Notes: generated by a model from the letters alone, not told the origin. 14,506 nucleotides of DNA from a virus (IMGVR_UViG_2778261446_000005:1-14506), one strand, 5' to 3'; shown: positions 2,832 through 14,506, counted from the first letter of the stretch. Translations and numbers: made by a program.

Positions 2832-3128
2832 TCAGTCATTACTGATAGCGCCATAGCGTGAGCGGTAATTACGCAGGCGCGGGTCGATATATTCAGGGAA
2901 GTGGGTATATGTGGCTTTGCGGAATGGTCGGATTGATGTCTGGTAAATTCGCTCTCGTTCTTCTTTCTCTGCAAGCCATATACAGTGGCGAAATTCCTTT
3001 TCCTCTTTCGTTTCCTGCGGTAGCGACATTATCAGGTCGTAGTTTTTTCTGAATTTATCCAGCACCTCCGATACGGAATTGCCGGAACAGCGGCGCGGGT
3101 CATCCGCACCATACAGAGGCGCTGGCAT
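2832..3128 (-). CDS. Hypothetical protein (98 aa); possibly an Abc-type anti-RecBCD protein by position and size only
   Basis: ORF from track, AAGGAT SD upstream of ATG at 3128. Sits just downstream of erf-ssb, where P22 carries abc1/abc2; I cannot confirm sequence similarity from memory. Confidence 0.45.
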
Positions 3129-3535: not shown

Positions 3536-4140
3536 TAAGCAGCCGCTCCTTCTAATTCGTCTCGTCTGATGTTGTAAACGTCCTGCGCTTTGTGCTGCTC
3601 CGGTGTGCCTTCGAGCATCTTCCACGCTTTGGCGAACGCCTGTTTAAGCTCTTCTACGGTGTTTTTCTGCAATGCTGCGTCAGTGAATGCTTTTAGAACC
3701 TGTTCAGGTGTAGGTGATGGTTTTGATTGCTTTGCTGCTGCGTTCTGCTGATGTTTATGCTCGTCGGTATCTGCATCTTTCGCATCATCAATGCCGAACA
3801 AACCATTGAGGCAATACTTGCGTGCATAAGAGCTTGTAGCTCCAGTAACTTGTGCAGAATCCATTCCTTTCTTGCTTTCTTCCTCTCGTGCAAGAGCGGT
3901 TGCCGTATGACTGTTTTCGCCATCGGTAATAGTTGCCGTGGCTTTCACGTAATACCGATCACCAATCAACACAACTTCATCGCTGATTGATAAAAACAGA
4001 CCATTCAGTAACGGCTTAACGCCTTCAAGAATGTCTTCGCAGCTTCTGTATTTATATTTACCGAATGAGTTGTACTGATTCTTTGGCGCATTCAGATTCT
4101 CCTGAATGGCTGCCAGTCTTGCGTAAAATTCTTTGCTCAT
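3535..4140 (-). CDS. erf: Erf-family single-strand annealing recombinase (P22 Erf-like, 201 aa)
   Basis: Translation from the ATG at 4140 begins MSKEFYARLAAIQENLNAPKNQYNSFGKYKYRSCEDILEGVKPLL..., matching my recollection of P22 Erf. Track ORF 3535..4170 begins at an upstream TTG. C-terminal third diverges, as expected for mosaic Erf tails. Confidence 0.8.
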   Translation of the reverse strand: MSKEFYARLAAIQENLNAPKNQYNSFGKYKYRSCEDILEGVKPLLNGLFLSISDEVVLIGDRYYVKATATITDGENSHTATALAREEESKKGMDSAQVTGATSSYARKYCLNGLFGIDDAKDADTDEHKHQQNAAAKQSKPSPTPEQVLKAFTDAALQKNTVEELKQAFAKAWKMLEGTPEQHKAQDVYNIRRDELEGAAA

Positions 4141-4150
4141 ATGTTTGTTC

Positions 4151-4321
4151 TCAGAATGGACATTCCCCAAGGAAATAACGCTGATTTAATACTTCGACTC
4201 GGGACAAATTAAGGCATACCCGCATTCCTTCGCGGTCGCCATTATGGCGATACCAGAGAGCTTTCTGCGTGTACATGCGTCTCTGTAACTTGCTCTCCTT
4301 CACTGTGGTTGCAAGTGACAT
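4151..4321 (-). CDS. Small basic protein (56 aa), arf-like by position
   Basis: Manual translation. ATG at 4321 with strong AAGGAGA SD; stop TGA at 4153..4151, 11 nt before the erf start. MSLATTVKESKLQRRMYTQKALWYRHNG... Lies where P22 has arf, but identity is not verified. Confidence 0.4.
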   Translation of the reverse strand: MSLATTVKESKLQRRMYTQKALWYRHNGDREGMRVCLNLSRVEVLNQRYFLGECPF

Positions 4322-4689: not shown

Positions 4690-5658
4690 TTAGTAGGTTA
4701 TTTTTGTTGCGAATACTTCGCCTTTTACGATGGCTGTTATGATATTTTTAGCAACATCTTCTGATGCGCCAACCTTGATAAGGTCAGCAAGTATTTTGTT
4801 ATTTACTTCTTTCCGGTGAGCTTTATCCTTTGCTCTACGCTCTTCTTCGTCCTTGATTCTTTTTTCTTCTGCTATTCTGGCTTGCTCTTTTTCTTCAGCC
4901 TCGCGCCGGATTCGTTCTGCCTCCTCCTGTGCTTTTCGGCGTTCTGCTTCAATTGCTGCCTGCTTTTCTCTTTCAGCTCGTTCTGCTGCCTCTTTTGCTT
5001 CGCGCTGTGCTCGTCGCTCGGCTTCAATGCGTTCACGCTCTGCACGTTCCGCTGCGGCCTTAGCTTCTGCTTCTCGCCTTGCTGCTGCTTCAATTTCGGC
5101 TTTTGCCTTTGCTTCGGCTTCTGCTCTGGCTTTCTCTTCAGCTTCTTTTTTTAAGCGTTCTTCATGCTCTCGCTTTTCCTGCTCCGCTTTGAGTCTTGCC
5201 TCTTCTCTTTGGCGGTCAAATTCGCGATCCATCAAAATCGCTATTTCATGGTCAGACTCAATTTGCTTTGCGAGAGCTTCAGCTGCTGCCTTAGCTTCTT
5301 CTTCGGCTTTAATCCGTGCCTGTTCCTCCTCATAATCAGTAAGAGGCTGGCGCGCCTTGGCTTTCAGTTCATCAAGGCGATCGCGCACTGTCTTGCGGTT
5401 GGCATCAATTAGCTTTGGAATTTCCTTCAGTTCAGCAACAAGGTCTTTGCCAAGACCATCGAGATATGTTTTCGTCTGCGCAACTTTATACGCCAGAGAA
5501 GCGATCTCCTTTCTGCCCTTTGCCGTTGTGATATCAGGCACAAAGGACATAACTTCACGTTCAACCTTTTGGAGAATTTCTTCAATCTGGTCGGCAGACT
5601 GAAATACAGTCATTGCATTTGCTTTTTCAATAACAACTAAATCTGTTACTTCACTCAT
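4690..5658 (-). CDS. Unknown protein (322 aa): about 110-aa N-terminal domain, about 170-aa Glu/Ala/Lys/Arg-rich predicted single alpha-helix or coiled coil, about 40-aa C-terminal domain
   Basis: Track ORF 4690..5754; I place the start at the ATG at 5658 (MSEVTDLVVIEK...) because it is 7 nt after a GGAGG SD and directly after an intrinsic terminator. Central region is repetitive EAK/ERA-type sequence (e.g. EEKARAEAEAKAKAEIEAAARREAEAKAAAERAERERIEAERRAQREAKEAAERAEREKQAAIEAERRK). Confidence 0.7.
   Translation of the reverse strand: MSEVTDLVVIEKANAMTVFQSADQIEEILQKVEREVMSFVPDITTAKGRKEIASLAYKVAQTKTYLDGLGKDLVAELKEIPKLIDANRKTVRDRLDELKAKARQPLTDYEEEQARIKAEEEAKAAAEALAKQIESDHEIAILMDREFDRQREEARLKAEQEKREHEERLKKEAEEKARAEAEAKAKAEIEAAARREAEAKAAAERAERERIEAERRAQREAKEAAERAEREKQAAIEAERRKAQEEAERIRREAEEKEQARIAEEKRIKDEEERRAKDKAHRKEVNNKILADLIKVGASEDVAKNIITAIVKGEVFATKITY
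4850..5340 (-). repeat. Low-complexity coding repeat encoding the E/A/K/R-rich helix
   Basis: Plus strand is pyrimidine-rich with reiterated gcttc/tgctgc/ctcttc units. It generates two spurious plus-strand ORFs (4816..5154, 4853..5335) rich in Cys/Ser/Phe/Leu. Confidence 0.6.
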
Positions 5659-5670
5659 ATATCCTCCATC

Positions 5671-5700
5671 AAAAAAAATTGCCCTCACACGGGAGGGCAA
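5671..5700 (-). terminator. Intrinsic terminator (minus strand) immediately upstream of the ER/K-rich gene
   Basis: Minus strand reads TTGCCCTC-CCGTGT-GAGGGCAA followed by TTTTTTTT (plus 5671..5678 is the A-run). Not followed by a T-run on the plus strand, so it is strand-specific. Confidence 0.7.
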
Positions 5701-5791
5701 AGAAGATTTCCAATAATCAGAACAAGTCGGCTCCTGTTTAGTTACGAGCGACATTGCTCACATAGCAGACTCGTAAATCTGCTATAGGCGC

Positions 5792-6537: not shown

Positions 6538-6653
6538 ATCTCACCTCAATCGTAATAAGCTGGAATTGATTTTCCGCGTTGCTTCTGGCGGCCTGAACAG
6601 GTCACACCCATTTCACTGTGTGGCTTGCTGTAATAAATTCGGTTAGTTCAGAC

Positions 6654-6676
6654 AATAAAAAACCCACCGAAGTGGG
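6654..6676 (-). terminator. Intrinsic terminator within the early-left operon (tL1-like)
   Basis: Minus strand reads CCCAC-TTCG-GTGGG followed by TTTTTTATT, starting immediately after the TAG stop (6679..6677) of the first gene downstream of N. Confidence 0.7.
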
Positions 6677-7015
6677 CTATGACCATTTTTTATTTGGATT
6701 TCGTTGGTGAGCGTGATTAACAACTCTGTGCATTACATCCTCATATTTTTCATCTTCAATTTTTTCGACATCGCGAGGAAATGGTGTTGCTAATGCTTTG
6801 TCAACTTTGTCCATTGGGTCTTCATTAATCTTATATTCAGGACCGTCATCTATAGCATTAAATCCAGGTGTTACACCGTTTTTTAATGCATATGCTATCC
6901 TCTTTTCCCATCTCGCTATTCTCCTCCTGTCTCGAGATGTAAGACCTCTATCAGATACTTTTCTGTTTTGTCCGCGGTCAGGATTAACATAAATAGTCTT
7001 TTTCACCATAAGCAT
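6677..7015 (-). CDS. Hypothetical basic/acidic protein, first gene downstream of N (about 110 aa)
   Basis: Track ORF 6677..7021 begins at a TTG; ATGs at 7015 and 7009 are the likely starts (MLMVKKTIYVNPDRGQNRKVSDRG...). No SD, 2 nt after the N stop, suggesting translational coupling. Occupies the slot lambda uses for ral. Confidence 0.5.
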   Translation of the reverse strand: MLMVKKTIYVNPDRGQNRKVSDRGLTSRDRRRIARWEKRIAYALKNGVTPGFNAIDDGPEYKINEDPMDKVDKALATPFPRDVEKIEDEKYEDVMHRVVNHAHQRNPNKKWS

Positions 7016-7017
7016 AC

Positions 7018-7323
7018 TCAATAAGCACCGTACGGTAGTTTACTGTACAATTTTATTTTTTGGACTGCATGTATTTTGTTTCCTAACGGGTTTGAATCTT
7101 TGTAATAAATACTTCTATTTTTTCGAACGACTTCTTCTTTCTTCTTGCAGCAAAGGCTTCCTAGTGATGCTGCTTTGTCTGCTCTGACGCAACCAGAGAG
7201 CTTTAGCGCAATTTTTCGCGCCAGTGCTTCATTACTGCGTCGCTCGGCAATAAGTTCTGCTCTGCGAGCTTTGTAGCGGCTTTTTGCCGTACCTTTGGAT
7301 TCTTTCCAGACAATGGTTACCAT
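7018..7323 (-). CDS. N: Antitermination protein N, phage phi21 type (101 aa)
   Basis: Translation from the ATG at 7323 begins MVTIVWKESKGTAKSRYKARRAELIAERR, the arginine-rich motif I recall for the phi21 N boxB-binding peptide. AAGGAGA SD 6 nt upstream. The in-frame ATG at 7353 has no SD. Located just downstream of pL and nutL. Confidence 0.85.
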   Translation of the reverse strand: MVTIVWKESKGTAKSRYKARRAELIAERRSNEALARKIALKLSGCVRADKAASLGSLCCKKKEEVVRKNRSIYYKDSNPLGNKIHAVQKIKLYSKLPYGAY

Positions 7324-7433
7324 GATGGTCTCCTTTAAGTGGCTTTGGCGCATGACGCGTCGAGGTGCTTATCTTCTCGATCGCTGTCTTGCAGCTGCAA
7401 TTCGCGCCATCCCCAAAACCACTCAAGTTCTGG

Positions 7434-7474
7434 TCTCAACGGTTAGGTTGAGAGTCCGTCGATGTTAAAGAGCC
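7434..7474 (-). promoter_or_regulatory. nutL: boxA (7464..7474) and boxB hairpin (7434..7453)
   Basis: Minus strand reads GCTCTTTAACA (boxA consensus) then, 10 nt later, TCTCAAC-CTAACC-GTTGAGA (7-bp stem, 6-nt loop). The loop CUAACC is shared with the nutR hairpin at 8584..8601. Confidence 0.7.
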
Positions 7475-7514
7475 TGCCAATCTGTTCCGTTTGGCTTCCA
7501 GCGTCCTGCTGATG

Positions 7515-7580
7515 GCTTAAATTTAAGACTTCTTAATTTATTGGTCAAGTGCATTTTTGAAGAAAACTTAATTTTATGGG
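7515..7580 (-). promoter_or_regulatory. pL promoter with OL operator sites
   Basis: Minus strand has TTGACC (plus 7543..7548), a 17-nt spacer and TAAATT (plus 7520..7525). Overlapping palindromic P22-type operator half-sites AATTAAGAAGTCTTAAATT, and a second AATTAAG...CTTCAAAA site upstream of the -35. Confidence 0.6.
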
Positions 7581-7613
7581 CGTGAATTTAGTTTATCCTT
7601 GATTTTTAACGGG

Positions 7614-7637
7614 AAATAAAAAAGGGGCGAAAGCCCC
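7614..7637 (-). terminator. Intrinsic terminator immediately after the c2 stop
   Basis: Minus strand reads GGGGC-TTTC-GCCCC followed by TTTTTATTTCCC. The c2 stop TAA is at 7640..7638. No T-run follows the hairpin on the plus strand. Confidence 0.75.
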
Positions 7638-8288
7638 TTAAGGAAGGTTTGCTAGCTTGGCATCAACGACAACGCCAATGATTTTACAGTTCCCATTGAT
7701 TTCAATCATTGGGTATTGTGGATTGAGTGGTTTCAGGAATTTTCTACCGGCATCAATAACTAACTTTTTGAATGTCGCCTCGTTTTCTCCTTCAAGTTTG
7801 GCGACTACCAGCTTTCCATTACGTGGTTCGACTTCTGGGTCGACGAGAATAATCATCCCCTCAGGAATACTCAGTCCTGCCGGGGCAGTCATTGAATCGC
7901 CTTTAACGTCGAGCCAAAAAGAGTCTTCAGAACAATCTACCGTTGTGTCGTACCAGTTATCTATTGCACGCCTATGATATGGCTCTACAGCTTCCATCCA
8001 ACATCCTGCGCTTACCCAACTAATTAGAGGATACGAACCTCTTGGATCATGCCTGCTGTGATAGGCAATGTTTGAAAGACTATCCTCTCCTTTCAACAGG
8101 TAATCAGGGGAGCACTGCAAAGCCTTGGCTAAGGCCAATAGGTTTTCGCCATTGGGCTCAGTTTCAGATCGCTCCCATTGGGAAATAGCAACATTAGACA
8201 CGCCAACCATCTTGCCAAGGGCAGCCTGCCTAATCTTGAGTTCTTTTCTGCGAGCGCGAATACGCTCACCCATCAGTTGTGTATTCAT
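7638..8288 (-). CDS. c2: Prophage repressor, P22 c2 type (CI-like, HTH plus LexA-like S24 autocleavage domain, 216 aa)
   Basis: Translation MNTQLMGERIRARRKELKIRQAALGKMVGVSNVAISQWERSETEPNGENLLALAKALQCSPDYLL... matches my recollection of P22 C2 almost throughout. C-terminal domain has the G-D-S-M and K-L motifs of RecA-cleavable repressors. Divergently oriented to cro. Confidence 0.9.
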   Translation of the reverse strand: MNTQLMGERIRARRKELKIRQAALGKMVGVSNVAISQWERSETEPNGENLLALAKALQCSPDYLLKGEDSLSNIAYHSRHDPRGSYPLISWVSAGCWMEAVEPYHRRAIDNWYDTTVDCSEDSFWLDVKGDSMTAPAGLSIPEGMIILVDPEVEPRNGKLVVAKLEGENEATFKKLVIDAGRKFLKPLNPQYPMIEINGNCKIIGVVVDAKLANLP

Positions 8289-8360
8289 AGTTAAGACATC
8301 TTAAATAAACTTGACTTAAGATTCCTTTGGTGGATAATTTAAGTGTTCTTTAATTTCGGA
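8289..8360. promoter_or_regulatory. OR operator region with pR (rightward) and pRM (leftward)
   Basis: Three P22-type operator palindromes: AGTTAAGACATCTTAAAT (about 8290..8307), CTTAAGATTCCTTTGG, and ATTTAAGTGTTCTTTAAT (about 8337..8354). pR -35 TTGACT at 8311..8316 and -10 GATAAT at 8333..8338. c2 ATG at 8288 abuts the leftmost operator (leaderless-type arrangement). Confidence 0.7.
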
Positions 8361-8368
8361 GCGAGTCT

Positions 8369-8554
8369 ATGTACAAAAAAGATGTTATTGACCACTTCGG
8401 AACCCAGCGTGCTGTTGCTAAAGCACTAGGCATTAGCGATGCAGCAGTCTCTCAGTGGAAAGAAGTTATCCCAGAGAAAGACGCCTATCGATTGGAAATC
8501 GTTACAGCTGGCGCCCTGAAGTATCAAGAAAGTGCTTACCGCCAAGCGGCATAA
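8369..8554 (+). CDS. cro: Cro repressor, P22 type (61 aa)
   Basis: Translation MYKKDVIDHFGTQRAVAKALGISDAAVSQWKEVIPEKDAYRLEIVTAGALKYQESAYRQAA matches my recollection of P22 Cro. GGAG SD upstream. Confidence 0.85.
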   Translation: MYKKDVIDHFGTQRAVAKALGISDAAVSQWKEVIPEKDAYRLEIVTAGALKYQESAYRQAA

Positions 8555-8560
8555 GCAAAT

Positions 8561-8601
8561 TGCTCTTTAACAGTTCTGGCCTTTCACCTCTAACCGGGTG
8601 A
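8561..8601 (+). promoter_or_regulatory. nutR: boxA (8561..8572) and boxB hairpin (8584..8601)
   Basis: TGCTCTTTAACA matches the boxA consensus. Eleven nt later, TCACC-TCTAACCG-GGTGA forms a hairpin (alternatively CACCU-CUAACC-GGGUG with a G-U pair), sharing the CUAACC loop with nutL. Confidence 0.7.
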
Positions 8602-8669
8602 GCAAACATCAGCGGCAAATCCATTGGGTGTGCCGCTATAACTCAATATCAATATAGGAAAATTAACAA

Positions 8670-8966
8670 ATGGCACAAGCAAGCTACAGCAAGCCAACAC
8701 AGCGAGAAATTGATCGCGCTGAAACTGATTTACTCATCAACCTGTCAACGCTTACCCAGCGCGGTCTGGCAAAGATGATTGGCTGTCATGAATCGAAGAT
8801 AAGCAGAACGGACTGGAGATTTATTGCTTCGGTTCTGTGTGCTTTCGGAATGGCATCAGACATCAGTCCGATTAGCAGGGCTTTTAAGTATGCGCTTGAT
8901 GGACTCGCAAAGAAAAAATCCCCGGCTGCCACCGAGGATTCTGAGCAAATTGATATGCAATTCTGA
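8670..8966 (+). CDS. cII: CII-like transcriptional activator (98 aa)
   Basis: Same architecture as lambda CII; C-terminus KKKSPAATEDSEQIDMQF resembles lambda KKRPAATERSEQIQMEF. AGGAAA SD upstream. Position between cro/nutR and O. Confidence 0.75.
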   Translation: MAQASYSKPTQREIDRAETDLLINLSTLTQRGLAKMIGCHESKISRTDWRFIASVLCAFGMASDISPISRAFKYALDGLAKKKSPAATEDSEQIDMQF

Positions 8967-8989
8967 GGTCATTACTGGATCAATCCACA
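8908..8989 (-). ncRNA. Candidate oop-like antisense RNA overlapping the 3' end of cII
   Basis: Minus strand has a terminator inside the cII 3' end: TCCTCGG-TGGCA-CCGGGGA (7-bp stem with one G-U pair, pairs only in the minus-strand RNA) followed by TTTTTTCTTT (plus A-run 8912..8918). About 80 nt upstream on the minus strand is a -10-like CATAAT (plus 8996..9001) with a weak -35. Size and position mirror lambda oop. The 5' end is inferred. Confidence 0.45.
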
Positions 8990-8998
8990 GGAGTAATT

Positions 8999-9160
8999 AT
9001 GACAAAACGTCGTAAGAAATACCAGGAAAAAGAAGAGATTCGACACCCTGATTCACCTGAGGGATTAGTGGTAGCCGCAGCAAATAACAGGGCGTTCGCA
9101 GAGCGCCTTGTTGGTGTTTACAGACTAGCCAAAGCAGGAGTGAAACATGGGCGTCGTTAA
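8999..9160 (+). CDS. Small basic ORF between cII and O (53 aa, MTKRRKKYQEKEEIRHPDSPEGL...)
   Basis: Manual translation. AGGAG SD 6 nt upstream of the ATG. Stop overlaps the O start by 14 nt. Below the track cutoff. Confidence 0.35.
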   Translation: MTKRRKKYQEKEEIRHPDSPEGLVVAAANNRAFAERLVGVYRLAKAGVKHGRR

Positions 9161-9977: not shown

Positions 9978-11350
9978 GACAGGATATCGAAGCGAGCGTT
10001 ATCGGTGGCCTGCTGATTGGTGGATTAACTCCAACCGCCAGCGACGTTCTGGCAACGCTGGAGCCGGAAGCGTTTTCAATTCCGCTCTACCGGAAAGCCT
10101 TCGAGGTTATCCGCAAGCAGGCGAGAAACAGAAACCTAATCGATGCGCTGATGGTTGCCGAGGCGTGCGGAGAGGAGCATTTCACGTCAATCCTGATGAC
10201 CAGCAAAAACTGCCCGAGTGCCGCAAACCTGAAGGGATATGCCGGAATGGTCGCGGATAACTATCACCGCCGTCTGGTGCTGGAAATCATAGATGAAATG
10301 CGTGAACCAATCCAAAGCGGAACCATCGACGCATCGAGTCAGGCGATGGATGAACTTGTAAAACGTCTCTCAGCCATCAGAAAACCCCGTGACGAGGTTA
10401 AACCTGTACGGTTAGGGGAAATCATCACCGACTACACTGACACGCTTGACAGGCGTCTGAGGAACGGAGAAGAGTCCGATACCCTGAAGACCGGAATCGA
10501 AGAACTTGATGCCATCACCGGAGGGATGAACGCGGAAGACCTGGTGATAATCGCTGCTCGTCCTGGTATGGGGAAAACCGAACTGGCGCTGAAGATTGCC
10601 GAAGGCGTTGCAAGCCGCGTTATTCCTGGTTCTGACGTCCGGCGCGGGGTATTGATTTTCTCAATGGAAATGAGCGCATTGCAGATTGCAGAGCGAAGCA
10701 TTGCCAACGCCGGGAGGATGTCGGTTAGTGTGCTGCGAAATCCTGCAGCGATGGATGACGAAGGCTGGGCGCGCGTTGCTAACGGCATGAGTCAGCTTGC
10801 AGATTTGGATGTATGGGTAGTCGATGCCTCGCGGTTATCGGTAGAAGAAATTCGCTCAATCGCAGAACGGCACAAACAGGAAAATCCAAACCTGTCACTC
10901 ATCATGGCGGATTATCTTGGCCTGATTGAGAAGCCGAAAGCAGATCGCAACGACCTCGCAATTGCTCACATCTCCGGAAGCCTGAAGGCGATGGCGAAAG
11001 ACCTGAAAACGCCCGTTATCTCCCTGAGTCAGCTTTCGCGCGATGTTGAGAAGCGACCAAACAAACGCCCGACAAACGCAGATTTGCGTGATTCAGGAAG
11101 CATTGAGCAGGACGCAGACTCAATCATCATGCTCTATCGGGAAGCGGTATATGACGAGAACAGTAGCGCCGCGCCATTTGCTGAAATCATCGTGACGAAA
11201 AACCGTTTTGGCTCGCTTGGTACAGTTTACCAGCGGTTCTGTAACGGACACTTTGTTGCATGTGACCAGGATGAAGCCAGACAGATTTGCACAGCATCAA
11301 ATGCACCTGCTGCGCGTGGCAGACGATATGCACAAGGGGCTGACGTATGA
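9974..11350 (+). CDS. DnaB-family replicative helicase (P22 gene 12 type, 458 aa)
   Basis: ATGA overlap with the O-like gene. N-terminal DnaB-like domain; Walker A motif in [15 protein letters not shown]; RecA-like C-terminal domain with the DnaB-type [12 protein letters not shown] and IIMLYRE motifs. Confidence 0.85.
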
Positions 11351-11375
11351 CCATCTACATCACTGAGCTAATAAC

Positions 11376-11407
11376 AGGCCTGCTGGTAATCGCAGGCCTT
11401 TTTATTT
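11376..11407 (+). terminator. Intrinsic terminator between the helicase and ninB (tR2-like)
   Basis: AGGCCTGC-TGGTAATC-GCAGGCCT (8-bp stem) followed by TTTTTATTT. Same position as lambda tR2, upstream of the nin region. Confidence 0.8.
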
Positions 11408-11423
11408 GGGGGAGAGGGAAGTC

Positions 11424-11864
11424 ATGAAAAAACTAACCTTTGAAATTCGATCTCCAGCACATCAGCAAAACGCTATTCACGCGGTACAGCAAATTCTTCC
11501 AGACCCAACCAAACCAATCGTAGTAACCATTCAGGAACGCAACCGCAGCTTAGACCAGAATCGAAAGCTTTGGGCTTGCCTTGGTGACGTCTCTCGTCAG
11601 GTTGAATGGCATGGTCGCTGGCTGGATGCAGAAAGCTGGAAGTGTGTGTTTACCGCAGCATTAAAGCAGCAGGATGTTGTTCCTAACCTTGCCGGGAATG
11701 GCTTTGTGGTAATAGGCCAGTCAACCAGCAGGATGCGTGTAAGCGAATTTGCGGAGCTATTAGAGCTTATACAGGCATTCGGTACAGAGCGTGGCGTTAA
11801 GTGGTCAGACGAAGCGCGACTGGCTCTCGAATGGAAAGCGAGATGGGGAGACAGGGCGGCATGA
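11424..11864 (+). CDS. ninB: NinB (Orf-family recombination mediator)
   Basis: Translation from the ATG at 11424 ([53 protein letters not shown]...) matches my recollection of lambda NinB. Track ORF starts 6 codons upstream. Confidence 0.85.
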
Positions 11865-12037
11865 GACGACAGCGACGAAGTATCACCGACATAATCTGTG
11901 AAAACTGCAAATACCTTCCAACGAAACGCTCCAGAAATAAACGCAAGCAAATCCCAAAAGAATCTGACGTAAAAACCTTCAACTACACGGCTCACCTGTG
12001 GGATATCCGGTGGCTAAGACATCGTGCGAGGAAATGA
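11861..12037 (+). CDS. ninD: NinD (58 aa, zinc-ribbon-like small protein)
   Basis: ATGA overlap with nin[59 protein letters not shown] matches my recollection of lambda NinD. Track ORF starts upstream, inside ninB. Confidence 0.75.
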
Positions 12038-12039
12038 CA

Positions 12040-12402
12040 ATGGATTATTCACAGTTAAGTGATTTTGAAATTAACTTAAAAATCGCGCATATCGTGCTAG
12101 GAAAAAACAATTACGACTGGGATCCAGAAAAGAAAGAAGTTTGCTTAGCTGGAATTGATGGTGGTGAGTTTTTGCCTTGTGGATATTTCGACCCATGTAA
12201 TAGGGCCGCTGACGCATATCCGATCATCACTGAAAACAAAATTAGCACCATGTGGATGACAGCGGAAAAAGAATGGTGCGCATGGTCAGGAGGTGATTTA
12301 GAGGAAGGTTGTTGGGTTCCTGACTACTGCTTCTGCGGTGAATCGCCTCTCCGCGCAGCCATGATTGTATTTCTAATGATGCAGGTCGCTAATAATGCTT
12401 AG
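12040..12402 (+). CDS. Cys-rich nin-region protein (about 120 aa), possibly NinX-like
   Basis: Track ORF 11998..12402; likely start is the ATG at 12040 (MDYSQLSDFEINLK...), 8 nt after GAGGA. Occupies the position of lambda ninE but is larger and Cys/Trp-rich. The NinX name is a low-confidence recollection. Confidence 0.5.
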   Translation: MDYSQLSDFEINLKIAHIVLGKNNYDWDPEKKEVCLAGIDGGEFLPCGYFDPCNRAADAYPIITENKISTMWMTAEKEWCAWSGGDLEEGCWVPDYCFCGESPLRAAMIVFLMMQVANNA

Positions 12403-12571
12403 CCCATCCCAAACCCTTCAATACCAGAAAGAAAGCGTCGAGCGAGCTTTAACGTGCGCTAACTGCGGTCAGAAGCTGCATGTGCTGGAAGTTCACGTGT
12501 GCTCAGATTGCTGCGCAGAACTGATGAGCGATCCGAATAGCTCAATGTACGAGGAAGAAGATGATGGCTAA
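12395..12571 (+). CDS. ninF: NinF (58 aa)
   Basis: Manual translation [58 protein letters not shown], matching my recollection of lambda NinF. Overlaps the upstream stop; below the ORF-track cutoff. Confidence 0.7.
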
Positions 12572-13175
12572 ACCAGCGCGAAGACGATGTAAAAACGATG
12601 AATGCCGGGAATGGTTTCACCCTGCATTCGCTAATCAGTGGTGGTGCTCTCCAGAGTGTGGAACCAAGATAGCACTCGAACGACGAAGCAAAGAACGCGA
12701 AAAAGCGGAAAAAGCAGCAGAGAAGAAACGACGACGAGAGGATCAGAAACAGAAAGATAAACTTAAGATTCGAAAACTCGCCTTAAAGCCCCGCAGTTAC
12801 TGGATTAAACAAGCCCAACAAGCCGTAAACGCCTTCATCAGAGAAAGAGACCGCGACTTACCATGTATCTCATGCGGAACGATCACGTCTGCTCAGTGGG
12901 ATGCCGGACATTACCGGACAACTGCTGCGGCACCTCAACTCCGATTTGATGAACGCAATATTCACAAGCAATGCGTGGTGTGCAACCAGCACAAAAGCGG
13001 AAATCTCGTTCCGTATCGCGTCGAACTGATTAGCCGTATCGGGCAGGAAGCAGTAGACGAAATCGAATCAAACCATAACCGCCATCGCTGGACTGTCGAA
13101 GAGTGCAAGGCGATCAAGGCAGAGTACCAACAGAAACTCAAAGACCTGCGAAATAGCAGAAGTGAGGCCGCATGA
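12561..13175 (+). CDS. ninG: NinG / Rap (recombination-promoting structure-specific endonuclease)
   Basis: Translation [42 protein letters not shown]... matches my recollection of lambda NinG. Overlaps the ninF stop. Confidence 0.85.
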
Positions 13176-13378
13176 CGTTCTCAGTAAAAACCATTCCAGA
13201 CATGCTCGTTGAAGCATACGGAAACCAGACAGAAGTAGCACGCAGACTGAAATGTAGTCGCGGTACGGTCAGAAAATACGTTGATGATAAAGACGGGAAA
13301 ATGCACGCCATCGTCAACGACGTTCTTATGGTTCATCGCGGATGGAGTGAAAGAGATGCGCTATTACGAAAGAATTGA
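13172..13378 (+). CDS. ninH: NinH (68 aa)
   Basis: ATGA overlap with nin[69 protein letters not shown] matches lambda NinH as I recall it. Confidence 0.8.
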
Positions 13379-14027
13379 TGGCAGCAAATACCGAAATATT
13401 TGGGTAGTTGGCGATCTGCACGGATGCTACACGAACCTGATGAAAAAACTGGAGACGATAGGATTCGACACCAAAAAAGACCTGCTTATCTCGGTTGGCG
13501 ATTTGGTTGATCGCGGTACAGAGAACGTCGAATGTCTGGAATTAATCACATTCCCCTGGTTCAGAGCTGTACGTGGAAACCATGAGCACATGATGATTGA
13601 TGGCTTATCAGAGCGTGGAAACGTTAATCACTGGCTGCTTAATGGCGGTAGTTGGTTCTTTAATCTCGATTACGACAAAGAAATTCTGGCTAAAGCTCTT
13701 GCCCATAAAGCAGATGAACTTCCGTTAATCATCGAACTGGTGAGTAAAGGTAAAAAATATGTCATCTGCCACGCCGATTATCCTTGTGACGAATACGAGT
13801 TTGGAAAGCCAGTTGATCATCAGCAGGTAATCTGGAACCGAGAACGAATCAGCAACTCACAAGACGGGATCGTGAAAGAAATCAAAGGAGCGGACACGTT
13901 CATCTTTGGTCATACGCCAGCAGTGAAACCACTCAAGTTTGCCAACCAGATGTATATCGATACCGGCGCAGTGTTCTGCGGAAACCTCACATTGATTCAG
14001 GTACAGGGAGAAGGCGCGTGGGCATAA
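13356..14027 (+). CDS. ninI: NinI Ser/Thr protein phosphatase (lambda PPase family, calcineurin-like metallophosphoesterase)
   Basis: Translation from the ATG at 13356 ([54 protein letters not shown]...GNHE...) has the GDxHG / GDxxDRG / GNHE metallophosphatase motifs and matches lambda protein phosphatase as I recall it. Track ORF starts upstream, inside ninH. Confidence 0.85.
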
Positions 14028-14506
14028 GAGAACTAAACCTCACCAAAGAGCAGCACGAGTGGCTGAATGGCTGGCTTGAACTGTGGGGCGCATGGGTTTA
14101 TTCAGGTCGTCTGGAAAAGCGCATGAGCAGCGTAATAGCGAAGTTCATGGAGAGCGTAGAGCCGGGAAGAGTTATGACAAGGCCAATGTGTAATGATGAT
14201 GATGGAATGTTGATTTCTCAGGTCGTCGATTCCGTCATGTACATTGACAAGAAAGCCTTTGGCATCCTCCTCAGCTACTACGCCCACGGCTCTTCCAAGC
14301 ACGCCATTGCATCTTACTATCATCGCGTCGCAAGACCTCGCAAGATGTTATGCCGGGGCGGCGGGCGCATTCAAAAACCATCGCTCGCAACCTGTCGACG
14401 GGAAGTTGACGAAATCCTCAATGCCTCGTTGTTTATGATTTACCCGGTTCTGGATAGTGCGTTTAAAAACCGGAAACGTGTAGAGAAAATTAAACATGTA
14501 GCATAG
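14018..14506 (+). CDS. Q: Late-gene antiterminator Q (non-lambda Q family, about 162 aa)
   Basis: Immediately downstream of the nin cluster, where Q lies in lambdoid phages. Size and the W-x-GAW and C-x-DDD-M motifs resemble the phi21/82-type Q proteins as far as I recall. Start is a GTG at 14018 overlapping ninI by 10 nt; no in-frame ATG nearby. Stop coincides with the window end. Confidence 0.55.

What the first reader, a model, noticed from the sequence alone, without database searches (positions are those of the whole stretch)
7018..8602. Mosaic regulatory module: phi21-type N and nut sites combined with P22-type immunity genes
The N protein carries the phi21-type arginine-rich motif, and both nut sites have boxB hairpins with the same CUAACC loop, distinct from lambda and P22 boxB. 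The repressor, cro and operator palindromes are P22-like. The specificity-matched N and boxB have therefore travelled together and been combined with a different immunity region. The replication and nin modules are again of different lineages (P22-type helicase, lambda-type nin).
Basis: partly seen in the sequence, partly recalled or inferred. Interest (0 to 1): 0.4.

Follow-up and report, generated by a model that had tools for sequence, protein, structure and literature searches.

The report
Ordinary phage 21 immunity region

Summary
There is an N protein with the phi21 arginine-rich motif, two boxB hairpins with a CUAACC loop, and a repressor, cro and operators that resemble those of P22.

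The inference of a mosaic is wrong. Window 7101-9006 aligns with phage 21 itself at 98% identity. Between 7178 and 8906 there are only 6 base differences. The repressor is 216/216 and cro 61/61 identical to the phage 21 proteins, and all operator sites match the phage 21 versions. P22 is only 83.5% identical in DNA, and only between the two boxA elements.

Phage 21's own immunity genes are the P22 c2/cro homologues, so N, nut and immunity sit here in their archetypal linkage (imm21). Q at the window's end is also Q21 (99.4%). The block occurs in 438 of 5,426 complete E. coli genomes.

The side claims hold: the helicase is P22-type and the nin genes are lambda-type.

The real local joint lies inside the N gene. 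From about codon 58, N switches to a different tail that arrives with an HK022-type nun gene, and the nun promoter lies within the N coding sequence. This arrangement is already annotated in phages mEp235 and mEpX1.

Verdict: already known, low interest.

The parts
7018..7323 (-). N antiterminator gene, 101 aa. Residues 1-57 are identical to phage 21 N. Residues 58-101 are a variant C-terminal tail.
   Evidence: ORF. Alignment to phage 21 N is 77 identical positions over a 102-column alignment overall, with 57/57 at the N-terminus. It is 100/101 identical to mEp235 N. The RBS and start match the phage 21 annotation.
7237..7302 (-). Codons 8-29 of N: the arginine-rich motif that binds boxB.
   Evidence: 22/22 identical to PDB 1NYB chain A, the phi21 N peptide.
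7434..7453 (-). nutL boxB hairpin, UCUCAAC-CUAACC-GUUGAGA.
   Evidence: Fold of -9.3 kcal/mol with a 7-bp stem and 6-nt loop. Identical to the annotated phage 21 nutL stem_loop.
7464..7473 (-). nutL boxA (GCTCTTTAAC).
   Evidence: Identical in the window, phage 21 and P22. P22 homology ends just downstream of it. Annotated as boxA-L in phage 21.
7520..7602 (-). PL promoter (-35 TTGACC, -10 TAAATT) with operators OL1 7521-7538, OL2 7556-7573 and OL3 7585-7602.
   Evidence: Promoter scan. Operator pattern matches. Positions transferred from the phage 21 annotation with an offset of +4100. Two base differences from phage 21, at 7595 and 7598.
7622..7639 (-). Intrinsic terminator directly after the repressor gene.
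   Evidence: Annotated as a terminator at the same place in phage 21.
7638..8288 (-). Prophage repressor cI21, a homologue of P22 c2: HTH domain plus LexA-like S24 self-cleaving domain.
   Evidence: 216/216 aa identical to the phage 21 ORF and 202/216 to P22 c2. Pfam HTH_3 and Peptidase_S24. The N-terminal 68 aa are 66/68 identical to the P22 c2 DNA-binding domain structures 2R1J/1ADR.
8289..8354 (+). OR3 (8289-8306), OR2 (8314-8331) and OR1 (8337-8354), with PR (-35 TTGACT 8311-8316, -10 GATAAT 8333-8338) and a divergent PRM.
   Evidence: 100% identical to phage 21. Carries the phage 21 rather than the P22 bases at the four positions where the two differ.
8369..8554 (+). cro (lytic repressor).
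   Evidence: 61/61 identical to phage 21 cro and 60/61 to P22 cro. Pfam P22_Cro.
8562..8571 (+). nutR boxA (GCTCTTTAAC).
8583..8602 (+). nutR boxB hairpin, UUCACCU-CUAACC-GGGUGAG.
   Evidence: Fold. Identical to the annotated phage 21 nutR.
8670..8966 (+). cII activator gene, with the PRE / TTGC-N6-TTGC site at 8679-8692. This is the right-hand end of the phage 21-identical block; the last ~20 codons diverge.
   Evidence: First 79 aa identical to phage 21 cII, 91.9% overall. Mismatches to phage 21 cluster from 8907 onward. Pfam Phage_CII.
6660..7135 (-). nun cassette shared with HK022. It comprises the variant N tail (7018-7135), the nun promoter (-35 at 7065-7070, -10 at 7042-7047), nun (6677-7009) and a terminator (6661-6678).
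   Evidence: 96.8% nt identical to HK022. Nun is 108/109 identical to PDB 6ALG chain N. The promoter stretch 7034-7079 is 46/46 identical to the annotated nun promoter of O276/HK022. Terminator.
6540..6644 (-). Leftover 3' end of a phage 21/Sf6-type N gene, stranded downstream of nun.
   Evidence: blastn gives 87% identity to the phage 21 N 3' end and 95.7% to Sf6 N. It translates to NRIYYSKPHSEMGVTCSGRQKQRGKSIPAYYD*.
14018..14506 (+). Late antiterminator Q, phage 21 type (complete, 162 aa).
   Evidence: 99.4% aa identical to phage 21 Q. Matches the Q21 structures 6P18/6JNX at E about 1e-109.

Best explanation
The region is an intact, canonical imm21 control module of a lambdoid E. coli phage or prophage. 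It was inherited as one contiguous block from a phage 21-like ancestor.

How it works (by homology with phage 21, P22 and lambda):
- In the lysogen, the cI21 repressor binds OL1-3 and OR1-3 and shuts off PL and PR.
- After DNA damage, its LexA-like S24 domain self-cleaves.
- PL and PR then fire. Each transcript carries boxA and a boxB hairpin with a CUAACC loop.
- N is translated from the PL transcript. Its arginine-rich helix binds boxB, and together with host Nus factors it makes RNA polymerase read through terminators.
- Cro turns down early transcription. cII activates PRE.

The resemblance to P22 c2/cro exists because imm21 and P22 immC are old homologues: 83.5% in DNA, with identical DNA-recognition residues. 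N/boxB differ between the two phages.

Shown here: sequence identities, hairpins, operators, domain content. Inferred: all activities.
For: - Window 7101-9006 aligns with phage 21 (OL657228) at 97.96% over 1,909 nt in one ungapped-like block. Only 6 mismatches fall between 7178 and 8906.
- cI is 216/216 and cro 61/61 identical to phage 21.
- The OL/OR sites, boxA and boxB on both sides, and the N start and RBS are identical to phage 21 and match its published annotation.
- The N ARM is 22/22 identical to PDB 1NYB.
- P22 aligns only over 7459-8572, at 83.5%. Most differences in c2 are at third codon positions, and similarity falls to chance level immediately beyond each boxA.
- The lambda imm21 hybrids and the DE3 prophage carry the same block.
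- Q is also Q21.
- At least 80% of the block is present in 438 of 5,426 complete E. coli genomes, 87 of them at 99% identity or more. mEp235 is 99.7% identical.
Against: - N is not wholly phage 21-like. From about residue 58 its tail follows a different allele (77 identical positions over a 102-column alignment overall).
- The last ~20 codons of cII also diverge.
- So the block's edges have recombined, although neither joint separates N/nut from the immunity genes.
- No function was tested experimentally here.
Confidence: 0.95

Rival explanations
1. One reading: a recent recombinant in which a phi21-type N plus nutL/nutR were joined to a P22-type immunity core (c2, cro, operators) from a different phage.
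For: N/boxB are phi21-type, while c2 and cro are 93.5% and 98.4% aa identical to P22. P22 homology stops abruptly after boxA on both sides.
Against: - The same interval is contiguous with, and 99.65% identical to, phage 21 itself.
- Every position where the P22 and phage 21 operators or proteins differ carries the phage 21 state.
- P22 is only 83.5% identical in DNA.
- There is no identity step between N/nut and cI/cro relative to phage 21.
Confidence: 0.02
2. An ancient mosaic, compatible with the best explanation. Long ago, in the ancestry of either phage 21 or P22, a common OL-repressor-OR-cro-boxA core became associated with two different N/boxB sets. The '21 versus P22' boundaries at boxA are old recombination scars, not events in this element.
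For: - Similarity to P22 changes sharply from about 85-95% to chance level within a few bases after boxA-L and boxA-R.
- N versus P22 gp24 is only 24% identical.
- The N21/nutL21 module is found next to unrelated immunity regions in PA28 (933W-type cro) and mEpX1, so the module does move.
Against: 16% DNA divergence of the core means the event cannot be dated or given a direction from these data. Rapid divergence of N/boxB under specificity selection, without any exchange, is not excluded.
Confidence: 0.6
3. The N gene here is a decaying or non-functional hybrid because the nun insertion replaced its C-terminal tail. Antitermination would then be lost or taken over by another mechanism.
For: The joint lies inside N at about 7135-7177. 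The original tail is stranded downstream of nun at 6540-6644.
Against: - The ORF is intact with its phage 21 start and RBS.
- The same 101-aa N is conserved in the viable plaque-forming phages mEp235, mEpX1 and Kapi1.
- The variant tail keeps motifs shared with N21 (IYY, QKIKL).
- Tail swaps in N homologues are known to be tolerated: phage L and P22 gp24 are interchangeable despite unrelated C-terminal ends (PMC8022706).
Confidence: 0.05

Closest known systems
Coliphage 21 immunity region (imm21; GenBank OL657228, also carried by lambda imm21 hybrids and the DE3 prophage)
   Same: Same gene order: N, nutL, PL/OL, cI, OR/PR, cro, nutR, cII. cI and cro proteins, all operators, and boxA/boxB are identical. 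DNA is 99.65% identical over 7178-8906.
   Different: The N tail (residues 58-101) and the last ~20 codons of cII are different alleles. A nun cassette follows N. Flanking modules differ: Erf-type recombination and a P22/HK97-type replication pair instead of lambda-type red and O/P.
Phage mEp235 (JQ182731), and also mEpX1 and vB_EcoP_Kapi1
   Same: 99.7% identical over 6900-8700, including the N variant, nun, imm21 and nut sites. N and Nun are already annotated there.
   Different: mEp235 has different replication and recombination flanks. mEpX1 combines the same N-nun-nutL unit with an unrelated immunity region.
Salmonella phage P22 immC region (c2, cro, OL/OR; BK000583)
   Same: Homologous repressor (93.5% aa; DNA-binding domain 66/68), cro (98.4%), 18-bp operators (OR1 identical) and boxA.
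   Different: Only 83.5% DNA identity. Gene 24 (the N analogue) is 24% identical. The boxB hairpins and c1/cII are unrelated.
HK022 nun locus (Nun transcription-arrest factor that excludes lambda)
   Same: Nun is 108/109 identical. The nun promoter is 46/46 identical and a terminator follows. The 3' 39 codons of the N variant are also present upstream of nun in HK022.
   Different: HK022 has no N. putL RNA replaces nutL and the 5' part of N, and an IS903 lies downstream. Here nun sits behind a complete N gene.

Membership tests
imm21 immunity group (coliphage 21) | Repressor with the phage 21 sequence, especially the DNA-binding domain. | tested here: met
   216/216 aa identical to the phage 21 repressor ORF.
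imm21 immunity group (coliphage 21) | Phage 21 operator sequences at OL and OR. | tested here: met
   OR1-3 are identical. OL1-2 are identical. OL3 has 2 substitutions, at 7595 and 7598.
imm21 immunity group (coliphage 21) | A lysogen is immune to lambda imm21 / phage 21 superinfection. | not testable with these tools
   Needs plating tests. Predicted from the identity of repressor and operators.
phi21-type N / boxB antitermination | Arginine-rich motif of phi21 N. | tested here: met
   Residues 8-29 are 22/22 identical to PDB 1NYB chain A. Residues 1-57 are identical to phage 21 N.
phi21-type N / boxB antitermination | boxB hairpins with a CUAACC loop, each preceded by boxA, in both early transcripts. 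| tested here: met
   Identical to the annotated nutL/nutR of OL657228.
phi21-type N / boxB antitermination | Full-length N identical in type to N21, including the C-terminal region. | tested here: not met
   Residues 58-101 follow a different allele: 20 identical positions over the last 45 alignment columns. The effect on function is unknown. The same allele is present in the viable phages mEp235 and mEpX1.
P22 immC module (gene 24, c2, cro with P22 nut sites) | c2/cro and operators of the P22 sequence type. | tested here: inconclusive
   Clearly homologous (93.5% and 98.4% aa; OR1 identical), but all diagnostic differences carry the phage 21 state and DNA identity is only 83.5%.
P22 immC module (gene 24, c2, cro with P22 nut sites) | Gene 24 antiterminator and P22 boxB (GCGCUGACAAAGCGC). 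| tested here: not met
   N versus gp24 is 24% identical, and the boxB sequences are unrelated.
HK022-type Nun exclusion factor | Nun protein with its lambda-boxB-binding ARM and a C-terminal ...KKWS tail. | tested here: met
   108/109 identical to 6ALG chain N. The ARM is 26/26 identical to 1HJI chain B.
HK022-type Nun exclusion factor | Own promoter allowing expression from the repressed prophage. | tested here: met
   The sequence at 7034-7079 is 46/46 identical to the nun promoter annotated in O276/HK022. Promoter activity was not tested.

The most novel reading that the evidence does not exclude
The only mildly new point lies at the left edge of the finding.

- The 3' ~120 nt of this N gene have two roles. 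They encode an alternative N tail (in lambda N, this part contacts RNA polymerase). They also contain the constitutive nun promoter.
- This tail, nun and a terminator move together as one cassette. It was inserted at the 'IYY' codons of a phage 21/Sf6-type N, whose original tail is left stranded downstream.
- HK022 retains just the last 39 codons of this N variant between putL and nun.
- This suggests the N-less HK022 arrangement descends from an N-nun phage like this one, with putL replacing nutL and the 5' part of N.
Probability: 0.5. Interest if true: 0.25.

Novelty: already known. Interest (0 to 1): 0.08.

Why it matters
It matters mainly as a correction. A scan that labels imm21 as 'phi21 N on P22 immunity' would over-call mosaicism, because phage 21's own repressor and cro are the P22 c2/cro homologues.

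In practical terms, the element is predicted to confer imm21 immunity. Because its DNA-binding domain and operators match those of P22, it probably cross-reacts with P22 immC. It uses N21 and Q21 antitermination, and it additionally carries Nun, which should exclude lambda-type phages without affecting its own N21/boxB21 system.

None of this opens a new question.

Tried and rejected
- **Rfam scan.** A scan of the window, the HK022 locus and the phage 21 locus at gathering thresholds found nothing in the window. The only hit was the lambda cIII thermoregulator, in phage 21. No curated family covers nut/boxB or put RNA.
- **Literature not held.** I looked for the classic papers on the phage 21/P22 operator relationship (Poteete et al. 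1980) and on nun promoters (King et al. 2000). Neither is in the library. The statement that the phage 21 and P22 repressors recognise each other's operators therefore rests on my memory plus the sequence identity shown here.
- **Longer N pseudogene in HK022.** A tblastn hit suggested that HK022 keeps N residues 22-101. Inspection showed that only the last 39 codons are real; the rest contains a stop and gaps.
- **Source of the window.** I searched for an exact source among complete E. coli genomes and phage records. No record covers 80% or more of the 14.5 kb, so the element as a whole is a new combination of known modules.
- **Recombination joint between N/nutL and cI.** I considered this and rejected it. 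There is no identity step there relative to phage 21.
- **Operator pattern over the whole window.** With up to 3 mismatches, the total count is not above chance (16 found against 10.8 expected). Only the clustered sites with 2 or fewer mismatches beside cI are meaningful.

Full report
**1. What is there**

The window is the early region of a lambdoid coliphage or prophage. Reading along the interval named by the finding:

- An N gene at 7018-7323 on the minus strand.
- boxB-L at 7434-7453 and boxA-L at 7464-7473.
- PL with three operators at 7520-7602.
- A terminator at 7622-7639.
- A LexA-like repressor at 7638-8288 on the minus strand.
- OR3, OR2 and OR1 with PR at 8289-8354.
- cro at 8369-8554.
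- boxA-R at 8562-8571 and boxB-R at 8583-8602.
- Just beyond the finding, cII at 8670-8966.

**2. Check of the observation**

- N residues 8-29 are 22/22 identical to the phi21 N peptide solved in complex with boxB RNA (PDB 1NYB).
- Both boxB elements fold into 7-pair stems with the loop CUAACC.
- They differ from the lambda and P22 boxB sequences extracted from the reference genomes.
- The repressor is 93.5% and cro 98.4% identical in protein to P22 c2 and cro.
- The repressor's first 68 residues are 66/68 identical to the P22 c2 DNA-binding domain whose operator complex is solved (2R1J).
- Operators of the P22 type (ATTTAAG-N4-CTTAAT-like) flank the repressor gene. OL1 and OR1 match the pattern with no mismatches, OR3 with 1 and OL2 with 2.

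**3.

The decisive comparison is with phage 21 itself, whose complete genome is public (OL657228; Feiss et al. 2022, PMC9119081).

- Window 7101-9006 aligns with it in one block at 97.96%.
- The mismatches cluster at the two ends. Between 7178 and 8906 there are only six: 7392, 7595, 7598, 8659, 8834 and 8835.
- The repressor ORF is 216/216 and cro 61/61 identical to phage 21. The phage 21 record annotates a shorter repressor start, but the upstream codons are present and identical.
- OR is identical to phage 21 and carries the phage 21 base at each of the four positions where P22 differs. boxA, boxB, and the N start and RBS are also identical.
- P22 aligns only over 7459-8572, at 83.5%. Most differences in c2 are at third codon positions.

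So the 'P22-type immunity genes' are phage 21's own immunity genes. The block is imm21 in its archetypal linkage with N21 and nut21. It is the same block found in lambda imm21 hybrids and in the DE3 prophage.

The late antiterminator at the end of the window (14018-14506) is also Q21. It is 99.4% identical and matches the Q21 structures 6P18/6JNX. All five regulators in the window (N, cI, cro, cII, Q) are therefore of phage 21 type.

**4.

The comparison of phage 21 with P22 does show sharp boundaries. Similarity is about 85-95% from OL through cro and both boxA elements, then drops to chance level within a few bases, so that boxB, N/gene 24 and cII/c1 are unrelated. I recall this as an old observation: Franklin's 1985 comparison of the lambda, phi21 and P22 antitermination determinants, and Poteete et al. 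1980 on the P22 and 21 operators. Only the title of the latter could be confirmed, through a reference list.

The N21/nutL21 unit does occur next to unrelated immunity regions in other phages. PA28 has a 933W-type cro, and mEpX1 has a different repressor region. Both have the boxB TCTCAACCTAACCGTTGAGA upstream of an N21-type gene. N and boxB do travel together. This window is simply not an example of their being re-assorted.

The side claims hold. The helicase is 90% and the O-like protein 79% identical to P22 gp12 and gp18. The nin region is about 97% identical in DNA to lambda over 11347-11864, 11868-12034 and 12429-14020, with a NinX-like ORF replacing ninC/D.

**5. The real joint nearby**

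Relative to phage 21, identity collapses inside N, left of about 7135-7177.

- N residues 58-101 follow another allele.
- Window 6660-7135 is 96.8% identical to HK022. It contains that N tail, the nun gene (6677-7009; 108/109 identical to PDB 6ALG chain N) and a terminator at 6661-6678.
- The nun promoter annotated in the HK022/lambda hybrid O276 is 46/46 identical at 7034-7079, which is inside the N coding sequence here.
- Downstream of nun, at 6540-6644, lies the stranded 3' end of a phage 21/Sf6-type N, translating as NRIYYSKPHSEMGVTC... with its stop codon.
- HK022 itself keeps only the last 39 codons of the variant tail, between putL and nun.

The N-plus-Nun arrangement is already annotated in mEp235, mEpX1, PA28 and several Stx1a phages. 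Tail swaps in N homologues are documented for phage L versus P22 (PMC8022706).

**6. Mechanism**

This is inferred by homology and was not tested. cI21 represses PL and PR through OL and OR. RecA-stimulated self-cleavage of its S24 domain (Pfam) induces the phage. N binds the CUAACC-loop boxB in both early transcripts and, together with boxA and Nus factors, renders RNA polymerase resistant to termination. Cro, cII and Q21 act as they do in phage 21.

Nun is made from its own promoter in the lysogen. It should arrest transcription of superinfecting lambda at lambda boxB (Kang et al. 2017, PMC5386594). Because the resident phage uses a different boxB, it should be unaffected. That last point rests on my recollection of Robert et al. 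1987 and on the sequence difference between the boxB elements.

**7. Frequency and novelty**

At least 80% of the block is present in 438 of 5,426 complete E. coli genomes, 87 of them at 99% identity or more. E. coli HS matches at 99.8%. Phage mEp235 matches at 99.7%.

Nothing here is new in kind. The finding is a correct reading of the sequence features with an incorrect evolutionary inference. I rate it as already known, with an interest of 0.08.

Noticed in passing
window 6677-7009 (-), promoter 7042-7070 (-), terminator 6661-6678 (-): An HK022-type nun gene (108/109 aa identical to the solved Nun) sits directly behind a complete N gene. Its annotated promoter lies inside the last ~30 codons of N, so this stretch both codes for the N tail and drives nun.
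   Followed up: yes
window 6540-6644 (-): A stranded 3' end of a phage 21/Sf6-type N gene (about 32 codons plus stop) lies downstream of the nun terminator. This indicates that the nun cassette, with its own N tail, was inserted at the 'IYY' codons of an older N gene.
   Followed up: yes
L004 (HK022 AF069308) 2862-2976, minus strand: HK022, which has no N gene, retains the last 39 codons of this N variant between putL and nun, with the stop codon changed to TGG. Its nun locus looks derived from an N-nun arrangement.
   Followed up: partly
window 14018-14506 (+): A complete Q gene, 99.4% identical to phage 21 Q. The lambda-type nin homology ends exactly at the ninI/Q boundary (14020).
   Followed up: yes
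window 11998-12402 (+): A NinX-like ORF (Pfam PF10765) replaces ninC/ninD within the otherwise lambda-type nin region. Its flanks match P22 ninE/ninX at 97.6% over 11866-12075.
   Followed up: partly
window 8907-9008: The last ~20 codons of cII and the oop-overlap region switch away from the phage 21 allele. They are closer to, but not identical with, HK022/mEp235. This marks the right-hand edge of the imm21 block.
   Followed up: partly
L009 (PA28) and L010 (mEpX1): The N21-type gene with its nutL boxB occurs next to unrelated immunity regions: a 933W-type cro in PA28 and a different repressor region in mEpX1. In mEpX1 the homology with imm21 begins just downstream of PL. In PA28 the nun reading frame appears fused or shifted at its 5' end.
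   Followed up: partly
window 4690-5754 (-): A 354-aa ORF with a long, highly charged Glu/Ala/Lys/Arg-rich coiled-coil-like repeat region. It is annotated as 'TolA' or coiled-coil protein in related phages and was not examined.
   Followed up: no
L001 (phage 21 OL657228) 3538-4188: The public phage 21 record annotates the repressor from an internal Met (190 aa). The full 216-aa ORF, co-linear with P22 c2, is open and identical to the window's.
   Followed up: yes
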